A stretch of 64,000 nt of DNA from Candidatus Nomurabacteria bacterium (GCA_052035195.1 JBPOHU010000003.1:17453-81452); one strand, 5' to 3'. Counted from the first letter of the stretch, positions 9,553 through 44,796 are shown. Made by a program: numbers and translations. Notes: generated from the sequence alone by a model not told the origin.

Positions 9553-9649
9553 ATATATAAAGGTAACTTGAGATGAGGTTTTATGCAAGGGAAGAATCTC
9601 TTAGGCACAAAATATAAAAACACCAACTTCTTGGTGTTTTTATATTTTG

Positions 9650-9722
9650 TGCCCTCAGTAGGATTTGAACCTACGACCGTCTCCTTAAGAGGGAGCTGCT
9701 CTACCAGCTGAGCTATGAGGGC
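9650..9722 (-). tRNA. tRNA-Lys (anticodon CTT)
   Basis: Manual cloverleaf: acceptor GCCCTCA/TGAGGGC, D arm GCTC..GAGC, anticodon loop CTCTTAA, T arm GTAGG-TTCAAAT-CCTAC; 73 nt. Confidence 0.8.
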
Positions 9723-13665: not shown

Positions 13666-13813
13666 GGTCCTCTCGGTAGGACCGCTACGCTTATCTCCCT
13701 CGACTAAAACTGTTGCAACAGTTTTGTCTGGGCACCGACTCAACTGTTTTGTCTGCTGACAAAACATGTTTCCGTCGTTCGATTCCTACACGCACGACAA
13801 GAAGTTGTCGTGC
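13666..13813 (+). repeat. tRNA-linked structured repeat element, copy A (convergent with tRNA-Arg-GCG)
   Basis: Homologous to copies B, C and D. Blocks CTCCCTCGAC, GTCTGGGCACC, CTGCTG, AAAACAT and CCG.GTTCGATTCCTACACGCA, then terminal hairpin gcacgacaagaagttgtcgtgc. 5' end ggtcctctcggtagga is a direct copy of + strand 13859-13873 (the tRNA 3' end); gttcgattcctac is an inverted copy of the tRNA T arm. Confidence 0.6.
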
Positions 13814-13859
13814 TCTCAAGGATAATGTAAAAAGCCCCGCATGGGGGCTCATTACATTG

Positions 13860-14831: not shown

Positions 14832-14975
14832 GGGGATTCTCCCTCGACTTTTTCCTCGTCAGTCACTCGGAAAAGTCTGGGCACCAGCTCGCTTGTTTTT
14901 CCTGCTGGAAAAACATAGCTCCGCTGTTCGAATCCCCACACACGCAAAGCAGTTTGCGTGTTCCACCTCCGCAAA
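14832..14975 (+). repeat. tRNA-linked structured repeat element, copy B (convergent with tRNA-Ser)
   Basis: GGGGATTC...GAATCCCC closing stem. Hairpin 1 is GACTTTTTCC-loop TCGTCAGTCACTC-GGAAAAGTC. Hairpin 2 is GTTTTTCC-TGCT-GGAAAAAC. Terminal hairpin acgcaaagcagtttgcgt. GTTCGAATCCCC matches the tRNA-Ser T arm. Confidence 0.6.
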
Positions 14976-15010
14976 TAAAAATTACCCAATTTATGGGTAA
15001 TTTTTATTTG

Positions 15011-15095
15011 CGGAGGTGGGGGGATTCGAACTCCCGGTACCTTGCGGTACTCCTGTTTTCAAGACAGGTGCACTAAACCACTATGCGACACCTCC
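15011..15095 (-). tRNA. tRNA-Ser (anticodon TGA)
   Basis: Acceptor GGAGGTG/CACCTCC, anticodon stem-loop CCTGT-CTTGAAA-ACAGG, long variable arm GTACCGCAAGGTAC, T arm GGGAG-TTCGAAT-CCCCC; 85 nt. Confidence 0.8.
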
Positions 15096-18172: not shown

Positions 18173-18481
18173 ATGAATTTTAATTTAACAAAAAACAAAC
18201 CATCGGTAAAACACAAAAAAGACGGAAGAATAAATCCTCATCGTCTTTGGATTTTGTTTATAACTATTTTTTTAATTGCTCTAACTGTTGAGATAATTGT
18301 TTTTACTTATTTTTTTATTAACTCTTCTAAAGAGTTGGACTCTCCGGTAGAGGCTAACCTTGATGCAAATACAAGTCAGATCAAGAAAATAGAGCAGGTA
18401 GTTCAAAAGACAGAAGAAGCTGTTAAAATTAGAAAGGGGGAGTCACCATCTTCACAAAATGCGAGCTCTATAGTACAGTAG
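18173..18481 (+). CDS. Small single-TM protein (possible PilP-like component)
   Basis: 102 aa, one TM, last gene of the pilMNO block. Confidence 0.4.
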   Translation: MNFNLTKNKPSVKHKKDGRINPHRLWILFITIFLIALTVEIIVFTYFFINSSKELDSPVEANLDANTSQIKKIEQVVQKTEEAVKIRKGESPSSQNASSIVQ

Positions 18482-18502
18482 AGGAACCTCGGGGAATCGA
18501 TT

Positions 18503-18574
18503 GCTCCTGTAGTTAAATGGATATAACTGCGGACTTCTAAGCCGTTATTGTAGGTTCGATTCCTACCGGGAGCA
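18503..18574 (+). tRNA. tRNA-Arg (anticodon TCT)
   Basis: Acceptor GCTCCTG/CGGGAGC (one G-U), D arm GTTA-AATGGATA-TAAC, anticodon loop CTTCTAA, T arm GTAGG-TTCGATT-CCTAC. Confidence 0.7.
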
Positions 18575-18673
18575 CAAGCGAGAGAAATAGAAAGTTTATT
18601 TTCGTATTTTCGAGCGTAGCGCTCCCGGAAAGCTCAGCTTACGAGGGAGCACAAGCGAGAGAAATAGAAAGTT
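18568..18673 (+). repeat. 29-nt perfect direct repeat (18568-18596 and 18645-18673) beginning inside the tRNA-Arg(TCT) 3' end
   Basis: gggagcacaagcgagagaaatagaaagtt occurs twice, 77 nt apart; between them gctcccgg (inverse of the tRNA acceptor 3' strand) forms a mini stem with the second gggagc. Confidence 0.7.
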
Positions 18674-18706
18674 CACTTTAGTAACTCGTGACCACATTAT
18701 AGACTT

Positions 18707-18778
18707 GCGCTCTTAGCTCAGTGGTAGAGCAGCGCTTTTACACAGCGAAGGTCGGGGGTTCAAATCCCTCAGGGCGCA
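18707..18778 (+). tRNA. tRNA-Val (anticodon TAC)
   Basis: Acceptor GCGCTCT/AGGGCGC, D arm GCTC-AGTGGTA-GAGC, anticodon loop TTTACAC, T arm GGGGG-TTCAAAT-CCCTC. Confidence 0.85.
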
Positions 18779-18826
18779 CATAATACAAAAGACACCAAAT
18801 TTGGTGTCTTTTGTATTATGTGCAAA
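18779..18826 (+). terminator. Long hairpin terminator after tRNA-Val
   Basis: cacataatacaaaagacaccaaa-ttt-ggtgtcttttgtattatgtg. Confidence 0.6.
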
Positions 18827-18848
18827 AAGTTGTGATAGTATCATAATT

Positions 18849-19580
18849 ATGACACCTATAATCTTATTAGAAACTCAAAACTACCTTGTTATCAACAAGC
18901 CAGCTTCTCTCATTGTTCATACTGATGGTAAAACGAATGAGTCAACTCTTGTTGATTGGATTTTAAAAACAAGGCCAGAAATTTCTGGTGTAGGAGAACC
19001 GGCCGTGATAGATGGAAAGGTTTTTGATAGACCAGGTATTGTTCACCGACTAGACAAGGAAACATCGGGGATTATGATAATTGCAAAAAACCAAGAATCT
19101 TTTTTATTTTTTAAGCAGGCTTTTAAAGATAGAGTTATAGAAAAAAAATATCACGCATTTGTTTGGGGGCACTTCAAAGAACTTTCCGGAATAATAAATG
19201 AACCTATTGCTAGAAGCAGTGGAGACTTTCGAAGGTGGCAGTCTGGACGAGGAAAAAGAGGGGAAGAAAGAGACGCTATAACAAACTGGTCGCTGGTCCA
19301 CACTTTTGAAGATGAAAATGAAGACCTGTTTTCTTTTGTTGAGCTTTCACCAAAGACTGGTAGGACTCATCAACTCCGTGTACATATGAAATTTATACAA
19401 AGACCTATAGTTTCAGACTCTTTATATGCTCCAAGCAAAAGAGAGGCTTTAGGTTTTTCTAGGGTGGCGCTTCATGCCAGAAGTATTCGTTTTATAGACC
19501 AGGATGGTAAAAATATAGAGATAGAAGCCCCGTATCCATTTGATTTTGACAGGGCTCTTGCGGTGTACGTTAAAATATGA
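18849..19580 (+). CDS. RluA-family 23S rRNA/tRNA pseudouridine synthase
   Basis: [16 protein letters not shown] catalytic motif, ...THQLRVHM...; start MTPIILL at 18849. Confidence 0.8.
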
Positions 19581-20092: not shown

Positions 20093-20176
20093 GCGCGGGT
20101 GGCGAAATTGGTAGACGCACTACCTTGAGGTGGTAGCCCCAGCAATGGGTTGGAGGTTCAAGTCCTCTCTCGCGCA
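20093..20176 (+). tRNA. tRNA-Leu (anticodon GAG)
   Basis: Acceptor GCGCGGG/CTCGCGC, D arm GGCGAAATTGGTAGACGC, anticodon stem-loop CTACC-TTGAGGT-GGTAG, long variable arm, T arm GGAGG-TTCAAGT-CCTCT; 84 nt. Confidence 0.8.
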
Positions 20177-20225
20177 CATAAATGAAAAAGTCCCAATTAT
20201 TTGGGATTTTTTCATTTATGTGAGA

Positions 20226-20371
20226 AACAAACAAGACTGCTCTTGTTTGAGTGAGGACTTGAACAGCGGAGCTATGATTTATCACCAGATAAATCAAGCG
20301 AGCTGGTGCCTAGGCTTTCTTGAGTGGCTGACGAGAGAAAAGGCGAAGGAAAGATTCCTCTCTCGCGCACA
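20226..20371 (-). repeat. tRNA-linked structured repeat element, copy D (sense is the - strand; lies 3' of tRNA-Leu)
   Basis: Reverse complement aligns with copy B: ...CTCGTCAGCCACTC loop, CCTAGGCACCAGCTCGCTTG, hairpin ATTTATC-TGGT-GATAAAT, CATAGCTCCGCTGTTCAAGTCCTC. + strand start GAGGACTTGAAC is an inverted copy of the tRNA-Leu T arm; + strand end TCCTCTCTCGCGCAC directly copies the tRNA-Leu 3' end (20162-20176). Confidence 0.6.
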
Positions 20372-20407
20372 AAAATGATTTAGAGACAAAAACCCCGAAA
20401 GGGGTTT

Positions 20408-21557: not shown

Positions 21558-21564
21558 CAAGACC

Positions 21565-21597
21565 AAAAATCTGCAACTACAATGTTGCAGATTTTTG
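21565..21597 (+). terminator. Rho-independent terminator after tRNA-His
   Basis: aaaaatctgcaac-tacaat-gttgcagattttt. Confidence 0.6.
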
Positions 21598-21599
21598 CG

Positions 21600-21840
21600 T
21601 CTATGGAGGACATTAAAGAAGCAAACTGCTTTGCTTCTGTTCGGAATCGAAAGGCGCAGCTATGCCGATAGGCAAGCGAGCCGGGGTCGCGAGTACGTAT
21701 GAGCTTGAGTTTGTCGAAGGCGAATTAGTAACTCGTGACCGATTCCCGATAGCCCCTGCTCTGACGAGAGAAAAGTCGACCGCGTGCCGCCATAGCTTTA
21801 GCGGTGGAGCAGGGAGATAAGCGTAGCGGTCCCGATATTC
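21600..21840 (-). repeat. tRNA-linked structured repeat element, copy C (sense is the - strand; convergent with tRNA-His), with internal insertion
   Basis: - strand reads GGACCGCTACGCTTATCTCCCT (22 nt identical to the copy A 5' end), then GTCGACTTTTCTCTCGTCAG, GGCTCGCTTG, CATAGCTGCGCCTTTCGATTCC and hairpin agaagcaaagcagtttgcttct (all as in copy B). + strand 21740-21757 cgattcccgatagcccc copies the tRNA-His 3' end. Also contains the TTAGTAACTCGTGACC motif. Confidence 0.55.
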
Positions 21841-41418: not shown

Positions 41419-44400
41419 ATGGATAACAATCAACAACAATCAAAATCTCAATCAGCTCTTCGAGAAGAAGAAGTACTTCAATTTTGGAAAGAAAAAGATA
41501 TTTTCAAGAAATCAGTTGAAAAGAATGTCACAGGCAAAGAATTTGTCTTTTTTGAAGGCCCACCGACAGCAAATGCAAAACCAGCACTTCACCACCTTGA
41601 AGCTCGTGCTTTCAAGGACGTGATACCTCGATACAAAACAATGCAGGGCTATCATGTAGCTCGTCGCGCAGGATGGGACACTCACGGTCTTCCAGTAGAG
41701 CTTCAAATAGAAAAAGCTCTTGGCTTAGAATCAAAGAAAGATATTGAGAAGTATGGAGTAGCAGCTTTTAATAAAGCCTGCAAAGAAAGCGTTTTCACTT
41801 ATATTAAAGATTGGGAAATTTTCACCGATCGTATGGGGTATTGGGTGGACAAAAAGAGTGCTTACTATACTTTCAACTCTTCTTATATGGAATCCCTCTG
41901 GCATATAGTCGGAGAAATAAATAAAAGAAATTTACTTTATAAAGATTACAAAGTTGTCCCATGGTGCCCTCGTTGTGGTACAGGACTTTCTTCTCATGAA
42001 CTCGCACAAGGCTATCAAGATGTAAAAGACTTGTCAGTGTATGCAAAGTTTAAAATTGTAGGACTTGAAAAAGCGTATTTTCTTGCTTGGACTACAACAC
42101 CATGGACTCTTCCAGGTAACGTAGCTTTGGCTGTTGGTAATGATATTGAATATGTTGAAGCAAAAGTAGGTGATGAAATTTTTGTTCTTGCAAAAGAAAG
42201 ACTTAGTTTACTTGCAGAAGGTTATGAGATTATTGCACAGCACAAAGGTTCTGAAATGATAGGAATGGAATATGAACCACTTTATCCATATCTCAAGAGA
42301 GAAGCAGAGAAGAAAGGGTTGGATACAACAAAAGCATTCAAGGTTTATACTGCCGACTTTGTTACAACTACTGATGGTACTGGTATTGTACATATAGCAC
42401 CGATGTATGGGGCAGATGACTTTGATCTTGGAACAAAGATGGGACTGACTAAATTCCACACTGTTAACGAAGGAGGACACTTTATTCCAGGCACTGATTT
42501 TCTAGAAGGACGTTTTGTAAAGGATGAGTCTGTAGCTGTAGACATTATCAAAGATCTTGCTGGCCGAGGACAACTTTTCAAAAAAGAAAAATACGAACAC
42601 TCATATCCACATTGTTGGCGATGTAAAACTCCGCTTTTGTATTATGCGCGAGACTCTTGGTATGTTCGCATGAGTGAGCTCCGTGACGATTTGCTCAAAG
42701 CAAACGATGACGTTAACTGGGAACCAGAACATATAAAAAATGGAAGATTTGGAGAATGGCTTCGAGAGGTTAAAGACTGGGCATTTTCTCGTGAGCGATA
42801 TTGGGGGACACCACTGCCTGTATGGGAGAGTGTCGATGGAGATAGAGTAGTTGTTGATTCTATTGATACTCTCAAGAAACTCTCTATTACTTCTCAAAAC
42901 AAATACTTCGTCATGCGCCACGGTCAAACAGACCACAATGTTCGTCAAGAATGGAATGCCACAATAACAAATCCAGATCCTCTTACAGAGAAGGGTATAC
43001 AACAAGTTAAAGATGCATCAAATAATTTCAAAGAAGATATAGATATCATTATTACTTCTCCTTTTTCTCGAACCAAAGAGTCAGCTCAAATCTTCAAAGA
43101 AACAAAAGGACTAAATGTTGAGATAATAGAAGACCCACGTATTGCCGAATGGAATGTCGGTAAAGAGTTTGATGGAAAACCATTTTCAAAATATTTTGAA
43201 GTTAGAAATGTAAATGAAGATCGGTATGGATTCAAGGCTTCTGACGGAGAATCATACTTGGATATATTGAAAAGATCAGGGGAATTTATTTATGATTTAG
43301 AATCAAAATATAAAGGCAAAAGAGTGCTTATCATGACGCACGGAGCCGTAGCTCGAGCGCTCGAACTCCATAGCCACGGTATATCTTTTGATTCTCTATA
43401 CAGAAATACTAGAGATTACAACAACTTTGAAAATGCTGATCTTCGAGAGATTAATTTTGTACCATTACCTCACAATGAAAACTTTGAGTTAGATTTACAC
43501 AAGCCTTATATCGACGAAGTGGAACTGTACAAGGATGGCAAAAAGCTCACTCGAGTAAAAGAAGTGATGGACGTATGGTTCGATAGTGGAGGTATGCCTT
43601 TTGCACAAGAGCATTATATGGGTGAAGGTACACTTTCGTATCCGGCTGATTTCATTTCAGAAGCCATAGATCAAACTCGAGGTTGGTTCTATACACTTCT
43701 TGCTGTTGGTGTACTTATGAATCGAGAGTCTCCATATAAAAATGTGATTTGTCTTGGGCACCTACTCGACAAAGACGGAAAGAAGATGAGTAAGTCTATC
43801 GGTAATATAGTTGAGCCATTTGAACAAATGGATACTTTTGGTGCGGATGCAGTAAGATGGTGGATGTATAGTGTTAATGCTCCAGGGGAGAGCAAGAACT
43901 ATGATCCTAAAAGCGTAGCCGAAATAAATAACAAAGTCTTTAATTTGTTTAACAACGTTTTATCTTTCTATGAACTTTATAGAGACAAAGAACTTGAAGA
44001 TCAAAATAATAAAAGTGAAAATATTTTGGACAAATGGATATTAGCAAGGCTAAATCAAACTCTAGCAGAGGTAACAAATTCTCTTGATGCTTATGATCTT
44101 TTCCGTCCAACTCGAGCTCTTCGAGACCTCATAGACGACCTTTCTACTTGGTATTTGCGACGAAGTCGTGATCGTATCAAAGATGGAGAAAAGCAGGCAA
44201 AGCAGACGCTCTACTATGTGCTCAAAAATACAGCTCAAGCTATGGCTCCTTTTGCACCATTTTTTGCAGAGCATGTATGGCAGAAGCTTAAGCTTGATTC
44301 AGATGCAGAAAGTGTTCACTTAGCCCTTTGGCCCGATTATCAAGAAGCTGACTCTGAGCTTATAAATAATATGCAAATTACCAGAAACTTTTGTACAGCA

Positions 44401-44796
44401 GGAAATGCGTTTCGTAAATCAAAAAATATCCCAATTAGACAGCCTCTTAAGCTTATGAAAATATCATATGATGCTTTATCAAAAGATCTTACTTCTCTTA
44501 TAGAAGAAGAACTTAATATAAAAATGGTTTTAGTTGATACTGAAATTCAGCCAGCAGGAGAGATATATGTTGATGAAGAAATTACTCCAGAACTCAAACT
44601 CGAAGGGGAATACCGCGAGCTAGTTCGCTTGGTCCAAGACATGAGAAAAGAAAAAGGTCTTACTCCACAAGATGAGATCTCTCTAACACTTCCAGAAAAG
44701 TACAATGAAATATTTGCTAAATTTGGCGAAGAATTGAAAAAGGTTGTTGGTGCGAGGGAAGTGTCAGTACAAGGAGAAGAAGTTATGCTTAGTTAG
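41419..44796 (+). CDS. ileS: Isoleucine--tRNA ligase with an embedded histidine-phosphatase (PGAM-like) domain
   Basis: HIGH-region PPTANAKPALHHLEARAFKD, editing domain, KMSKS (KKMSKSIGN). ~200-aa insertion with FVMRHGQTDHN and LIMTHGAVARAL between RYWGTPLPVWE and DVWFDSG. Confidence 0.9.
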   Translation: MDNNQQQSKSQSALREEEVLQFWKEKDIFKKSVEKNVTGKEFVFFEGPPTANAKPALHHLEARAFKDVIPRYKTMQGYHVARRAGWDTHGLPVELQIEKALGLESKKDIEKYGVAAFNKACKESVFTYIKDWEIFTDRMGYWVDKKSAYYTFNSSYMESLWHIVGEINKRNLLYKDYKVVPWCPRCGTGLSSHELAQGYQDVKDLSVYAKFKIVGLEKAYFLAWTTTPWTLPGNVALAVGNDIEYVEAKVGDEIFVLAKERLSLLAEGYEIIAQHKGSEMIGMEYEPLYPYLKREAEKKGLDTTKAFKVYTADFVTTTDGTGIVHIAPMYGADDFDLGTKMGLTKFHTVNEGGHFIPGTDFLEGRFVKDESVAVDIIKDLAGRGQLFKKEKYEHSYPHCWRCKTPLLYYARDSWYVRMSELRDDLLKANDDVNWEPEHIKNGRFGEWLREVKDWAFSRERYWGTPLPVWESVDGDRVVVDSIDTLKKLSITSQNKYFVMRHGQTDHNVRQEWNATITNPDPLTEKGIQQVKDASNNFKEDIDIIITSPFSRTKESAQIFKETKGLNVEIIEDPRIAEWNVGKEFDGKPFSKYFEVRNVNEDRYGFKASDGESYLDILKRSGEFIYDLESKYKGKRVLIMTHGAVARALELHSHGISFDSLYRNTRDYNNFENADLREINFVPLPHNENFELDLHKPYIDEVELYKDGKKLTRVKEVMDVWFDSGGMPFAQEHYMGEGTLSYPADFISEAIDQTRGWFYTLLAVGVLMNRESPYKNVICLGHLLDKDGKKMSKSIGNIVEPFEQMDTFGADAVRWWMYSVNAPGESKNYDPKSVAEINNKVFNLFNNVLSFYELYRDKELEDQNNKSENILDKWILARLNQTLAEVTNSLDAYDLFRPTRALRDLIDDLSTWYLRRSRDRIKDGEKQAKQTLYYVLKNTAQAMAPFAPFFAEHVWQKLKLDSDAESVHLALWPDYQEADSELINNMQITRNFCTAGNAFRKSKNIPIRQPLKLMKISYDALSKDLTSLIEEELNIKMVLVDTEIQPAGEIYVDEEITPELKLEGEYRELVRLVQDMRKEKGLTPQDEISLTLPEKYNEIFAKFGEELKKVVGAREVSVQGEEVMLS

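What the first reader, a model, noticed from the sequence alone, without database searches (positions are those of the whole stretch)
18567..18673. Minimal version of the same architecture after tRNA-Arg(TCT): 29-nt perfect direct repeat starting inside the tRNA 3' end
gggagcacaagcgagagaaatagaaagtt is present at 18568-18596 (its first 7 nt are the last 7 nt of the tRNA) and again at 18645-18673. Between them gctcccgg (18621-18628), the inverse of the acceptor 3' strand, pairs with the second gggagc to form an acceptor-stem mimic. The pattern tRNA 3' end, trailer, inverted copy, direct copy recurs here with almost no core. That points to a generic process acting at tRNA 3' ends in this genome: site-specific recombination scars, or a templated duplication.
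Basis: seen in the sequence. Interest (0 to 1): 0.6.

Follow-up and report, generated by a model that had tools for sequence, protein, structure and literature searches.

The report
Decayed tRNA-tail insertion element, CPR bacterium
The 29-base repeat behind tRNA-Arg is real; it is a stripped-down relative of an apparently undescribed family of small folded non-coding elements that sit behind tRNA genes in CPR (Patescibacteria) bacteria and carry a mirror-image copy and a direct copy of the tRNA's own tail.

Summary
GGGAGCACAAGCGAGAGAAATAGAAAGTT occurs exactly twice (18568-18596, 18645-18673). The first copy starts in the last 7-8 nt of tRNA-Arg(tct). GCTCCCGG (18621-18628) is the exact complement of the tRNA's acceptor 3' strand.

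The 131-nt Arg-Val spacer is an insertion. Two syntenic relatives have 9-10 nt spacers. A third has a homologous 92-nt insertion whose inverted segment follows its own tRNA's acceptor sequence.

Four other tRNAs in the window (Arg-gcg, Ser, Leu, His) carry full-size versions. Their order is tRNA, hairpin, complement of the acceptor 3' strand (A'), hairpin P2, complement of the T-arm (T'), a conserved folded core, then a direct copy of the tRNA 3' end. In the core, 31 of 37 predicted pairs show compensatory changes.

A covariance model finds 65 copies in 51 CPR loci. Of 69 hits including the window, 55 lie downstream of a same-strand tRNA. One follows tmRNA and one sits in the 3' end of a protein gene.

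Rfam 15 and seven literature searches returned nothing like it. The Arg-tct structure does not score as a full member (7.9 bits) but contains exact family fragments.

Best reading: a decayed or tandem miniature cassette of an integrase-less, site-specific insertion family. The mechanism is unresolved.

The parts
18503..18575 (+). tRNA-Arg(tct); acceptor 5' strand GCTCCTG, 3' strand CGGGAGC, then A73 and C
   Evidence: ARAGORN; Rfam tRNA, 62.6 bits
18568..18596 (+). Direct repeat copy 1. It consists of X (GGGAGCAC, the tRNA 3' end) plus R (AAGCGAGAGAAATAGAAAGTT, inserted sequence that forms the left arm of a hairpin)
   Evidence: R is absent from the empty sites in L037 and L039
18597..18616 (+). 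R': an imperfect inverted copy of R and right arm of the first hairpin. It contains TATTTTCG x2. It is about 60% similar to the type-B right arm at 18674-18693
   Evidence: RNAfold; TRF; the same hairpin is present in L041
18613..18621 (+). AGCGTAGCG, a motif shared with the 3' end of the type-A elements of tRNA-Arg(gcg) and tRNA-His
   Evidence: Exactly 3 sites in the window, all in tRNA trailers
18621..18628 (+). X' (A'): GCTCCCGG, the exact complement of acceptor 3' strand positions 65-72
   Evidence: the L041 counterpart CCCCTGG follows that genome's acceptor sequence
18629..18644 (+). Small hairpin AAGC-TCA-GCTT enclosed by X'/X. It is either a miniature P2 or the 5' strand of a degenerate P3 (AAGCTCAG .. 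CAAGCGAG)
   Evidence: RNAfold; comparison with the P2 and P3 consensus in alignment A2. This assignment is an inference
18645..18673 (+). Direct repeat copy 2 (X + R). It contains CAAGCGAG, the P3 3'-strand motif, and CGAGAG.., which resembles a type-B P4 left arm
18677..18693 (+). TTTAGTAACTCGTGACC, the 3' strand of the long type-B hairpin P4 and the 3' terminus of type-B elements. Here it lacks a canonical partner strand
   Evidence: 16/16 identical to 21725-21740 and to L015; L062 carries the same string (read)
18707..18779 (+). tRNA-Val(tac). It is co-transcribed with tRNA-Arg, because no promoter-like or terminator-like site lies between them
13667..13858 (-). Full type-A element behind tRNA-Arg(gcg). 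Parts: P2 13793-13812, T' 13777-13791, core to 13681, direct copy CCTACCGAGAGGAC 13667-13680
   Evidence: Model R1, 124.8 bits
14825..15009 (-). Full type-A element behind tRNA-Ser(tga). Parts: A' 14963-14972, P2 14940-14961, T' 14926-14939, T copy 14832-14839. It is absent in relative L037
   Evidence: Model R1, 148.4 bits
20178..20378 (+). Full type-A element behind tRNA-Leu(gag). Parts: new hairpin 20175-20222, P2 20228-20249, T' 20253-20264, direct copy 20356-20378. It is followed by the ancestral trailer and terminator seen in empty L037
   Evidence: Model R1, 122.9 bits; (D19)
21559..21837 (+). Nested elements behind tRNA-His. First a type-B element (P2 21618-21637, T' 21642-21652, end 21725-21740) and direct copy 21741-21756. 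Then the remnant of a type-A 3' half (to 21830) and a third partial copy at 21831-21837
   Evidence: Model R1, 56.1 bits, not in the training set; 22/22 identity to 13679-13700 (I15)

Best explanation
The 131-nt spacer between tRNA-Arg(tct) and tRNA-Val is inserted material from a family of small (about 100-250 nt), gene-less elements. These elements occupy the 3' ends of tRNA genes in CPR bacteria, and occasionally tmRNA or protein genes.

A full element, read on the tRNA strand, has this order:
- a hairpin that often includes the tRNA's last bases;
- A', the complement of the acceptor 3' strand;
- a semi-conserved hairpin, P2;
- T', the complement of the T-stem 3' strand and T-loop;
- a conserved folded core (types A, B, C and others);
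- a direct copy of the tRNA from the T-loop to the discriminator, which in some copies continues into the trailer.

T' pairs with the direct copy and closes the core. The folded single strand therefore presents a mimic of the target's own 3' end.

Inferred: the elements integrate site-specifically so that the target gene's 3' end is regenerated and the old 3' end is displaced downstream. New cassettes enter next to the tRNA and older ones decay distally. The enzyme must act in trans and is unknown. A reaction on a folded single strand, as with integron attC or CTX-phage attP(+), fits the anatomy best.

The Arg-tct structure is a decayed or miniature array. Cassette 1 is the R/R' hairpin, A' and a mini hairpin. 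The repeated tRNA end follows. Cassette 2 starts with the same R and ends with the type-B terminus TTTAGTAACTCGTGACC. The perfect 29-mer is the repeated junction (tRNA end plus cassette start), either recently duplicated or homogenised.
For: Evidence that the spacer is an insertion:
- Syntenic relatives L037 and L039 have 10- and 9-nt Arg-Val spacers. L041 has a homologous 92-nt insertion with R, R', an inverted acceptor copy and a second tRNA-end copy.
- The inverted copy changes with the acceptor sequence: GCTCCC with GGGAGC here, CCCCT with AGGGG in L041.

Evidence for family membership by fragments:
- TTAGTAACTCGTGACC is 16/16 identical to the window's His element and to L015. AGCGTAGCG and CAAGCGAG occur almost only in tRNA trailers.
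- In relative L075 the same tRNA-Arg(tct) is followed by a short-form type-B element (39 bits).

Evidence that the family is real and folded:
- RNAalifold on 25 type-A copies gives 31 of 37 pairs with compensatory changes.
- The type-B P4 stem has a conserved G.T wobble in 13 of 13 copies, which indicates folding in the tRNA-sense strand.
- Minimum-energy folds of the window elements give the P1/P2/P3/P5 architecture.

Evidence on distribution:
- Model R1 gives 4 hits in the window and 65 in 51 CPR loci. Of these 69 hits, 55 lie within 420 nt downstream of a same-strand tRNA, covering more than 15 tRNA identities.
- One copy lies behind tmRNA in L016/L056. One lies in the 3' end of a topA-like ORF with a 20-nt direct repeat and a new stop codon.

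Evidence for insertion-type behaviour:
- Empty versus filled sites exist for Ser, Leu and His. For Leu, the ancestral trailer and terminator follow the downstream copy.
- His shows nested elements. The same core subfamily occurs at His and at Arg-gcg (I15, 33, 73).
- L062 has two cargo genes between repeated tRNA ends.

Evidence on the inverted copy:
- It is two blocks that are contiguous in tRNA coordinates (-10..-1 and -22..-11), with P2 exactly between them.
- T' and the direct copy share departures from the tRNA in L020, L050 and L055. L046 has a perfect 20/20 direct copy but an imperfect T'.
Against: - The Arg-tct region is not a significant match to the family model (7.9 bits, E = 3). 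Membership rests on short exact fragments and on architecture.
- No recombinase, transposase or reverse transcriptase was found in or beside any element, or among the 20 large ORFs scanned in the window.
- Copies within a genome are not near-identical. The best within-window pair is 0.76 and nearest neighbours are about 0.8. There is no sign of recent transposition, and long-term conservation also fits a host function.
- Direct-repeat lengths vary from about 7 to 68 nt, unlike a fixed target duplication.
- The insertion is present in the window and L041 but absent in L037 and L039. Judged from shared gene content and tRNA-Leu sequences, the window groups with L037 and L039 with L041. On that grouping, two gains, two losses or a transfer are needed.
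- In the Ser comparison the empty relative already has the hairpin with A'. A simple circle-integration model then needs an extra deletion step.
- The order of events that produced the perfect 29-mer is not resolved.
Confidence: 0.6

Rival explanations
1. The elements are host non-coding RNAs linked to tRNA genes. They would be co-transcribed with the tRNA. A'-P2-T' would pair with the direct copy to form an acceptor/T-arm minihelix. tRNA-processing enzymes (RNase P, RNase Z, CCA-adding enzyme) could then cut out a stable structured RNA, or the alternative pairing with the real tRNA 3' half could regulate tRNA maturation. On this reading the Arg-tct hairpin is a minimal acceptor-stem mimic inside the Arg-Val precursor.
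For: - Strong covariation, and nearly invariant unpaired nucleotides across CPR classes.
- A strand-specific G.T wobble.
- P2 sits exactly where the D and anticodon arms leave a tRNA.
- T' and the direct copy co-vary away from the tRNA in three loci, so the closing helix itself appears to be kept.
- No near-identical copies within genomes.
- The Arg-Val spacer has no terminator-like site, so it is transcribed.
- Several loci have no terminator between the tRNA and the element.
Against: - Presence or absence differs among relatives at the same tRNA, with different core subfamilies at orthologous tRNAs.
- Nested and truncated remnants occur.
- The acceptor part of the direct copy decays in several copies, for example Ser, L030, L045 and L052.
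- In many loci a canonical terminator lies between the tRNA and the element.
- The same logic occurs inside a protein gene's 3' end, with non-tRNA sequence.
- No expression data are available.
Confidence: 0.2
2. The Arg-tct pattern was made locally by replication errors, without any mobile element. Template switching at the quasi-palindromic trailer hairpin would do this, by fold-back synthesis or a tandem-inversion-duplication type event. It would first create the inverted copy and then the second direct copy.
For: - The direct-inverted-direct order is the signature of tandem inversion duplications and of quasi-palindrome-templated changes (established knowledge: work from Ripley, Lovett and Roth).
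- This genome has long perfect palindromes that begin inside tRNA 3' ends (I6, I9, I11, I16).
- The sharp 29/29 identity followed by about 60% identity looks like a templated patch.
Against: - The spacer contains exact fragments of elements found at other tRNAs and in other genomes.
- The inserted sequence R is not present at empty sites.
- A homologous insertion exists in L041.
- In L061 the downstream direct copy includes about 46 nt that are absent from the inverted copy, so the direct copy cannot be templated from the inverted one there.
- Template switching may still explain homogenisation of the arms.
Confidence: 0.1
3. The repeats are attL/attR-type scars left by a large integrase-encoding element (prophage or island) that integrated into tRNA-Arg and was later deleted.
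For: - tRNA and tmRNA 3' ends and 3' ends of protein genes are classic integrase targets, with regeneration of the gene end (established knowledge, Williams 2002).
- L062 shows two genes between repeated tRNA ends.
Against: - No integrase or phage genes were found near any copy among the ORFs scanned.
- No match in 50,697 phage records.
- No hit to the P3 motif in IMG/VR.
- The conserved covarying core recurs at dozens of tRNAs with the same 100-250 nt size.
- Only 7-8 nt of the 29-mer are tRNA.
Confidence: 0.05
4. The repeat is a chance similarity or an assembly artefact.
For: Short repeats can cause loops in de Bruijn assemblies. One public contig of this genome, L077, is a palindromic artefact at the tRNA-Val hairpin.
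Against: - None of 100 shuffles gives the 29-mer.
- An independent assembly of a different genome (L041) has the same architecture with diverged sequence.
Confidence: 0.02

Closest known systems
Site-specific integrative elements at tRNA/tmRNA genes, and their integrase-less derivatives (cis-mobilisable elements built up by tandem accretion)
   Same: - Targets are the 3' ends of tRNA, tmRNA and protein genes.
- The intact gene end is regenerated and the old end is displaced as a direct repeat. The repeat often starts in the T-loop.
- Tandem or nested arrays occur, with the newest unit next to the gene.
   Different: - The elements are only 100-250 nt long, and no gene or integrase was found in or beside any of them.
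- They have a conserved core with base-pair covariation.
- They carry an inverted copy of the target, split by a hairpin.
- Repeat length varies from 7 to 68 nt.
Folded single-strand recombination sites: integron attC, and CTX-phage attP(+), which mimics dif
   Same: Two inverted arms are separated by a variable structured spacer, and they fold into a duplex that mimics the target. After integration the order is direct, inverted, spacer, direct. Structure is conserved more than sequence, and the fold is strand-specific.
   Different: - There are no RYYYAAC/GTTRRRY boxes and no dif-like sequence.
- The arms copy a different target at every locus.
- No IntI or Xer dependence has been shown. The resemblance is one of architecture only.
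Bacterial MITEs and REPINs
   Same: They are small, non-coding, hairpin-rich and intergenic, have terminal inverted segments (T' and T), and depend on trans-acting functions.
   Different: - The terminal inverted segments differ at each locus and match the neighbouring tRNA.
- There is no fixed target duplication.
- There are no near-identical copies within a genome.
- Orientation is strictly tied to a tRNA.
Quasi-palindrome templated mutation and tandem inversion duplication
   Same: The direct-inverted-direct order, perfect long palindromes at tRNA ends, and a sharply bounded identical patch.
   Different: These processes cannot supply the conserved core shared between loci and genomes. In L061 they cannot produce the direct copy.
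Non-coding RNAs processed with tRNA signals (plant tRNA-snoRNA dicistrons, MALAT1-mascRNA), and transposon right-end guide RNAs (TnpB omega RNA) whose guide is the flanking DNA
   Same: A structured RNA lies directly behind a tRNA. A tRNA-like stem could recruit RNase P, RNase Z or the CCA-adding enzyme. A scaffold is followed by a 3' segment identical to the target flank.
   Different: - No expression or processing data exist.
- No associated nuclease gene was found.
- The 3' segment is paired with T', not free.
- Nothing of this kind has been reported in CPR bacteria in the sources I could search.

Membership tests
CPR tRNA-tail element family defined here (type A/B cores) | Significant match to the covariance model of P2-T'-P3-P5 | tested here: not met
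   Region 18587-18677 scores 7.9 bits, E = 3. The Ser, Arg-gcg, Leu and His elements score 148, 125, 123 and 56 bits.
CPR tRNA-tail element family defined here (type A/B cores) | Lies directly downstream of a tRNA, on the same strand | tested here: met
   Begins at the tRNA-Arg 3' end. 55 of 69 family hits lie downstream of a same-strand tRNA.
CPR tRNA-tail element family defined here (type A/B cores) | Inverted copy of the local acceptor 3' strand (A') | tested here: met
   GCTCCCGG at 18621-18628 matches 8/8. It follows the acceptor sequence in L041.
CPR tRNA-tail element family defined here (type A/B cores) | Inverted copy of the T-arm (T') closing the core with a direct T copy | tested here: not met
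   No T' or T copy lies between 18576 and 18706. The direct copy starts in the acceptor stem.
CPR tRNA-tail element family defined here (type A/B cores) | Conserved core motifs | tested here: inconclusive
   Only fragments are present: CAAGCGAG, AGCGTAGCG and TTTAGTAACTCGTGACC (16/16 with the type-B terminus). The P3 5' strand and the P4 partner strand are missing or degenerate.
CPR tRNA-tail element family defined here (type A/B cores) | Presence or absence differs between relatives | tested here: met
   L037 and L039 are empty, L041 is filled, and L075 has a short type-B element at the same tRNA.
Integrase-mediated tRNA integrative element | Direct repeat of the tRNA 3' part that regenerates an intact tRNA | tested here: met
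   The tRNA is intact (62.6 bits) and its 3' end is repeated.
Integrase-mediated tRNA integrative element | Tyrosine or serine recombinase gene carried by the element | tested here: not met
   There are 48 nt between the repeats and no ORF. No recombinase was found among the 20 large window ORFs scanned. A trans-acting enzyme elsewhere in the genome cannot be excluded.
MITE | Family-wide terminal inverted repeats, fixed-length target duplication, and many near-identical copies | tested here: not met
   The inverted ends differ per locus. Repeats range from 7 to 68 nt. Best within-genome identity is 0.76.
Integron attC site | R''/L''..L'/R' boxes with RYYYAAC..GTTRRRY, and an integron integrase | not tested
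   No attC model or search for the boxes was run, and I did not notice the boxes when reading the sequences. No integrase search was made across the genomes.
Any Rfam 15 family | Match at the gathering score, or a recurrent sub-threshold match | tested here: not met
   Only tRNA and tmRNA match. Nothing matches in the cores.
Simple tandem repeat (slippage) | Head-to-tail units similar over their whole length | tested here: not met
   TRF reports no 77-nt array. Similarity stops after 39 nt.
Intrinsic terminator | G+C-rich hairpin followed by a T run | tested here: not met
   No terminator-like site was found in 18400-18900.

The most novel reading that the evidence does not exclude
These are a new class of gene-less genetic cassettes, or of tRNA-mimicking RNAs, found across the Candidate Phyla Radiation. 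Each unit carries a folded core closed by a stem that copies the 3' end of its own target (tRNA, tmRNA or protein gene). It would be inserted, or processed, by a mechanism not yet described. One candidate is recombination of a folded single strand that mimics an arbitrary target. Another is maturation by the tRNA-processing machinery. On this reading the tRNA-end-inclusive perfect hairpins, and mini versions such as the Arg-tct repeat, are footprints of the same process.
Probability: 0.35. Interest if true: 0.85.

Novelty: new variant of a known kind. Interest (0 to 1): 0.65.

Why it matters
If confirmed, a majority of tRNA genes in some CPR genomes would carry a conserved, folded, target-mimicking appendix. 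In this window 4 of 7 tRNAs have a full element and 1 has a remnant.

This matters for three reasons:
- It would reveal either a new way in which tiny selfish DNA colonises the most conserved genes of very small genomes, or a new layer of tRNA-linked RNA biology in a huge, poorly understood bacterial radiation.
- The stem that rewrites itself to match each target is the kind of feature that has led to programmable tools elsewhere, such as attC, bridge RNA and omega RNA.
- It explains odd tRNA trailers, tRNA fragments and palindromic mis-assemblies in CPR metagenome-assembled genomes.

Tried and rejected
- Known RNA families. Rfam at gathering and at permissive thresholds, on the window and on 14 loci, gave only tRNA and tmRNA.
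- Ribozymes. I considered hammerhead because of CTGACGAG. That string lies in a hairpin loop of the type-A 3' domain, the hammerhead core is absent, and no ribozyme family matched.
- Phage origin. Megablast of 12 kb against the phage collection gave no match. An IMG/VR scan for the P3 motif gave 0 hits.
- Retro-copy of mature tRNA. The downstream copies generally lack CCA and continue into genomic trailer sequence. The inverted copy complements the genomic base after the discriminator and the trailer.
- Copy of the tRNA 5' strand. Rejected because of C rather than T at position 6 of GCTCCCGG.
- Antisense RNA with a tRNA-like 3' end. Considered early and dropped. The G.T wobbles favour the tRNA-sense strand.
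- IS110 bridge RNA or TIGR dual guides. Their guides cover adjacent half-sites. Here the direct and inverted segments are the same stretch and pair with each other. The TIGR-Tas paper (PMC12045711) does not describe anything like this.
- Simple tandem duplication. TRF was negative.
- Literature. Seven full-text searches found no description (the paper read came).
- Look-up of the window's own RluA. This returned only a palindromic artefact contig, which was not usable.
- First two regular expressions for instance finding. They had a typo and returned nothing. This was fixed.

Full report
**Observation**

The 29-mer GGGAGCACAAGCGAGAGAAATAGAAAGTT occurs exactly twice in the window, at 18568-18596 and 18645-18673. 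None is expected by chance. Similarity continues to 39 nt at 92% (D8).

tRNA-Arg(tct) is 18503-18575 by ARAGORN and 18503-18574 by Rfam. The repeat therefore begins with the last 7-8 nt of the tRNA.

GCTCCCGG (18621-18628) is the exact complement of tRNA positions 65-72. The 8-mer has three sites in the window against 0.27 expected. It carries C where the tRNA's own 5' strand has T (the T6.G67 wobble). It is therefore a complement of the 3' strand and not a copy of the 5' strand.

RNAfold pairs it with the second GGGAGC. It also shows that 18597-18628 as a whole is an imperfect inverted copy of the 29-mer. The order is direct, inverted, direct.

TRF finds no 77-nt tandem array. No promoter-like or terminator-like site lies between tRNA-Arg and tRNA-Val, so the spacer is part of a dicistronic precursor.

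**Context**

The window is chromosomal DNA of a CPR/Patescibacteria bacterium, close to Paceibacteria. It encodes PolA, PheT, IleRS, ArgRS, RecA, FtsK, PilM and DUF11 proteins and has about 37% G+C. It has no match among phage records.

**The spacer is an insertion**

I used homologues of the downstream RluA gene to fetch syntenic loci.
- L037 (82% identical RluA) has a 10-nt Arg-Val spacer. L039 (74%) has a 9-nt spacer.
- L041 (74%) has a 92-nt spacer that is homologous to the window's. It has tRNA end, R, R', then CCCCTGG..GGGGGCAC.
- The inverted segment in L041 follows that genome's different acceptor sequence.
- The 21 nt after the tRNA end (R) are absent from the empty sites. Only 7-8 nt of the 29-mer are target sequence; the rest is inserted material.
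- In three further relatives the tRNA pair is inverted. In L075, tRNA-Arg(tct) is followed by an end-inclusive hairpin and a short type-B element.

**Sister elements in the window**

tRNA-Arg(gcg), tRNA-Ser(tga), tRNA-Leu(gag) and tRNA-His(gtg) are each followed by a 150-280 nt non-coding stretch with the same order:
- a hairpin;
- A', the complement of the last about 10 nt of the tRNA;
- hairpin P2, whose loop is often CTGC;
- T', the complement of the T-stem 3' strand plus the T-loop;
- a conserved core;
- a direct copy of the tRNA from the T-loop onward.

The core motifs occur in the window almost only in tRNA trailers.

The Arg-tct spacer shares exact pieces with these elements:
- TTTAGTAACTCGTGACC matches the type-B terminus of the His element 16/16, and also L015; L062 carries the same string.
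- AGCGTAGCG and CAAGCGAG are also shared.

**A large CPR family**

Pattern scans of genome and metagenome collections returned 14 and 31 true loci. All true genome-collection loci are CPR/Patescibacteria by record title, and the 22 other genome hits were chance matches inside coding DNA of other phyla; the metagenome records carry no taxon labels.

An alignment of 25 type-A copies gives a consensus fold of P2, a two-part P3 with a GGA/GA internal loop, and P5. Of 37 pairs, 31 show compensatory changes.

A covariance model built from that alignment finds four copies in the window. One is the type-B His element, which was not in the training set. The model finds 65 copies in 51 loci totalling 300 kb. 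Of the 69 hits, 55 lie within 420 nt downstream of a same-strand tRNA, covering more than 15 tRNA identities. Six of the 13 without a tRNA are at contig edges.

Two copies have non-tRNA targets:
- One lies behind tmRNA.
- One lies inside the 3' end of a topA-like ORF. It has a 20-nt direct repeat, an element-supplied new C-terminus and stop codon, and an inverted copy of a contiguous ORF segment, again split by P2.

Other core families (type C and others) have the same flanks. Rfam 15 has no matching family. Seven literature searches found no description (paper read).

**Anatomy that constrains the mechanism**

1. The inverted copy is two blocks that are contiguous in tRNA coordinates (-10..-1 and -22..-11). 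P2 sits exactly between them, at the acceptor/T-stem junction.
2. T' pairs with the start of the direct copy and closes a three-way junction in minimum-energy folds.
3. In L020, L050 and L055, T' and the direct copy share the same departures from the tRNA. In L057 the change gives a G.U pair. In L046 the direct copy is a perfect 20/20 match while T' looks inherited from another Leu tRNA. So the direct copy is target-derived, and the closing helix is what is maintained.
4. The base of type-B P4 has a G.T wobble in 13 of 13 copies. The fold therefore belongs to the tRNA-sense strand, either RNA or single-stranded DNA.
5. Empty versus filled sites:
   - For Leu, the ancestral trailer and terminator follow the downstream copy.
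   - For Ser, the relative lacks the core but keeps the hairpin with A'.
   - For His, two relatives are empty, one has a type-A element, and the window has a type-B element followed by the remnant of a type-A element.
6. The same core subfamily is found at His (L037 and the window remnant) and at Arg-gcg in the window, with 22/22 identity (I15, 73). Cores therefore move between tRNAs, and the tRNA-matching parts are rewritten.
7. Copies within a genome are 70-80% identical, not near-identical. Turnover is slow.
8. L062 has tRNA, type-B element, repeat, two genes plus another module, then a repeat. This is an array of units separated by the repeated tRNA end.

**Reading of the Arg-tct spacer**

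- 18568-18575: tRNA end (X).
- 18576-18616: hairpin R/R', also present in L041.
- 18613-18621: AGCGTAGCG.
- 18621-18628: A'.
- 18629-18644: a small hairpin, either a mini P2 or the 5' strand of a degenerate P3.
- 18645-18652: second X.
- 18653-18693: R again, then the type-B terminus. Together these resemble a shortened type-B P4 hairpin.
- 18694-18706: the remaining spacer before tRNA-Val.

The region does not score as a full family member (7.9 bits). I read it as two decayed or miniature cassettes in tandem, separated by the repeated tRNA end. The perfect 29-mer is either a recently duplicated or a homogenised junction. The order of events is not resolved. The alternative annotation, in which the second X lies in the apex of a degenerate P3, is noted under parts.

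**Mechanism**

Shown:
- The spacer is an insertion polymorphism.
- The inserts are a conserved folded family.
- The targets are the 3' ends of tRNA, tmRNA and a protein gene, and the gene end is regenerated.
- Units occur nested or in tandem.
- A closing stem is built from an inverted and a direct copy of the target.

Inferred:
- Insertion is site-specific and carried out by a trans-acting enzyme.
- New units enter next to the tRNA and older ones decay.
- The folded single strand that mimics the target is the recombination substrate, by analogy with integron attC and CTX-phage attP(+).
- Quasi-palindrome templated correction may keep the arms matched to the tRNA.

No recombinase was found. The main rival, a host RNA matured by tRNA-processing enzymes or controlling tRNA maturation, is not excluded.

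**Verdict**

The Arg-tct repeat itself is a degenerate piece. The family it belongs to appears to be undescribed and is of real interest.

Noticed in passing
window 18776-18823; 9604-9653; 14963-15019; 20175-20222: tRNA-Val, tRNA-Lys, tRNA-Ser and tRNA-Leu are each followed by a perfect 22-26 bp palindrome. Its left arm starts inside the tRNA's last 3-10 nt. The Val palindrome has no loop at all. These palindromes could compete with the acceptor stem, could be RNase III-type processing sites, or could be footprints of the elements.
   Followed up: partly
window 18829-18837: GTTGTGATA after the tRNA-Val hairpin matches the terminus (TTGTGATC) of a type-B-like element that follows tRNA-Val in relative L041. 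It is probably a deletion remnant.
   Followed up: partly
L074 1280-1439, L075 157-327, L076 537-696: In three relatives the tRNA-Arg(tct)/tRNA-Val pair is inverted relative to the flanking genes, and the order becomes Val then Arg. This is a small inversion between hairpin-rich flanks.
   Followed up: no
L062 1283-2970 (same as L072): A 1.4-kb unit with two genes (192 aa and 169 aa, the latter with a P-loop motif GLPGSGKST) lies between the second and third copies of the tRNA-Gly 3' end. It ends with a module in which A' and T' are contiguous, with no P2. It looks like a gene-carrying cassette.
   Followed up: partly
L061 221-1560: A type-B element is inserted in the 3' end of a topoisomerase-like ORF. 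It replaces the last residues and the stop codon, and has a 20-nt direct repeat.
   Followed up: yes
L016 2151-2490 and L056: An element lies directly behind a tmRNA gene. Rfam matches the tmRNA 3' part at 38 bits, cut off by the contig end.
   Followed up: partly
L050 1487-1560: ARAGORN calls a tRNA with anticodon TTA, which would read the UAA stop codon, in a metagenome contig that carries family elements. Rfam scores it as tRNA at 72.7 bits. It may be a suppressor or a sign of recoding.
   Followed up: no
window 41419-44796: The isoleucyl-tRNA synthetase carries a histidine-phosphatase (His_Phos_1) domain inserted in the catalytic domain, at residues 497-664.
   Followed up: no
L077 (Logan SRR11088410 contig); L075 1-34: Two flaws in public assemblies. 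L077 is a fold-back artefact centred on the tRNA-Val palindrome, with two inverted copies of the RluA gene. L075 ends in untrimmed Illumina adapter sequence.
   Followed up: no
window 18597-18612; L020 near 254-267: TATTTTCG occurs twice in tandem in R'. A similar string, TTCGTATTTTCGAG, follows the direct copies of two elements in L020. It may be a further shared module.
   Followed up: partly
type-A cores, e.g. window 14850-14870 and alignment A2 columns 93-118: Repeated tandem G.A/A.G motifs (C-GA-GCC / GGC-GA-G, and GA-GU..AC-GA) occur in P3 and P5. They resemble K-turn or box C/D-like protein-binding modules.
   Followed up: no
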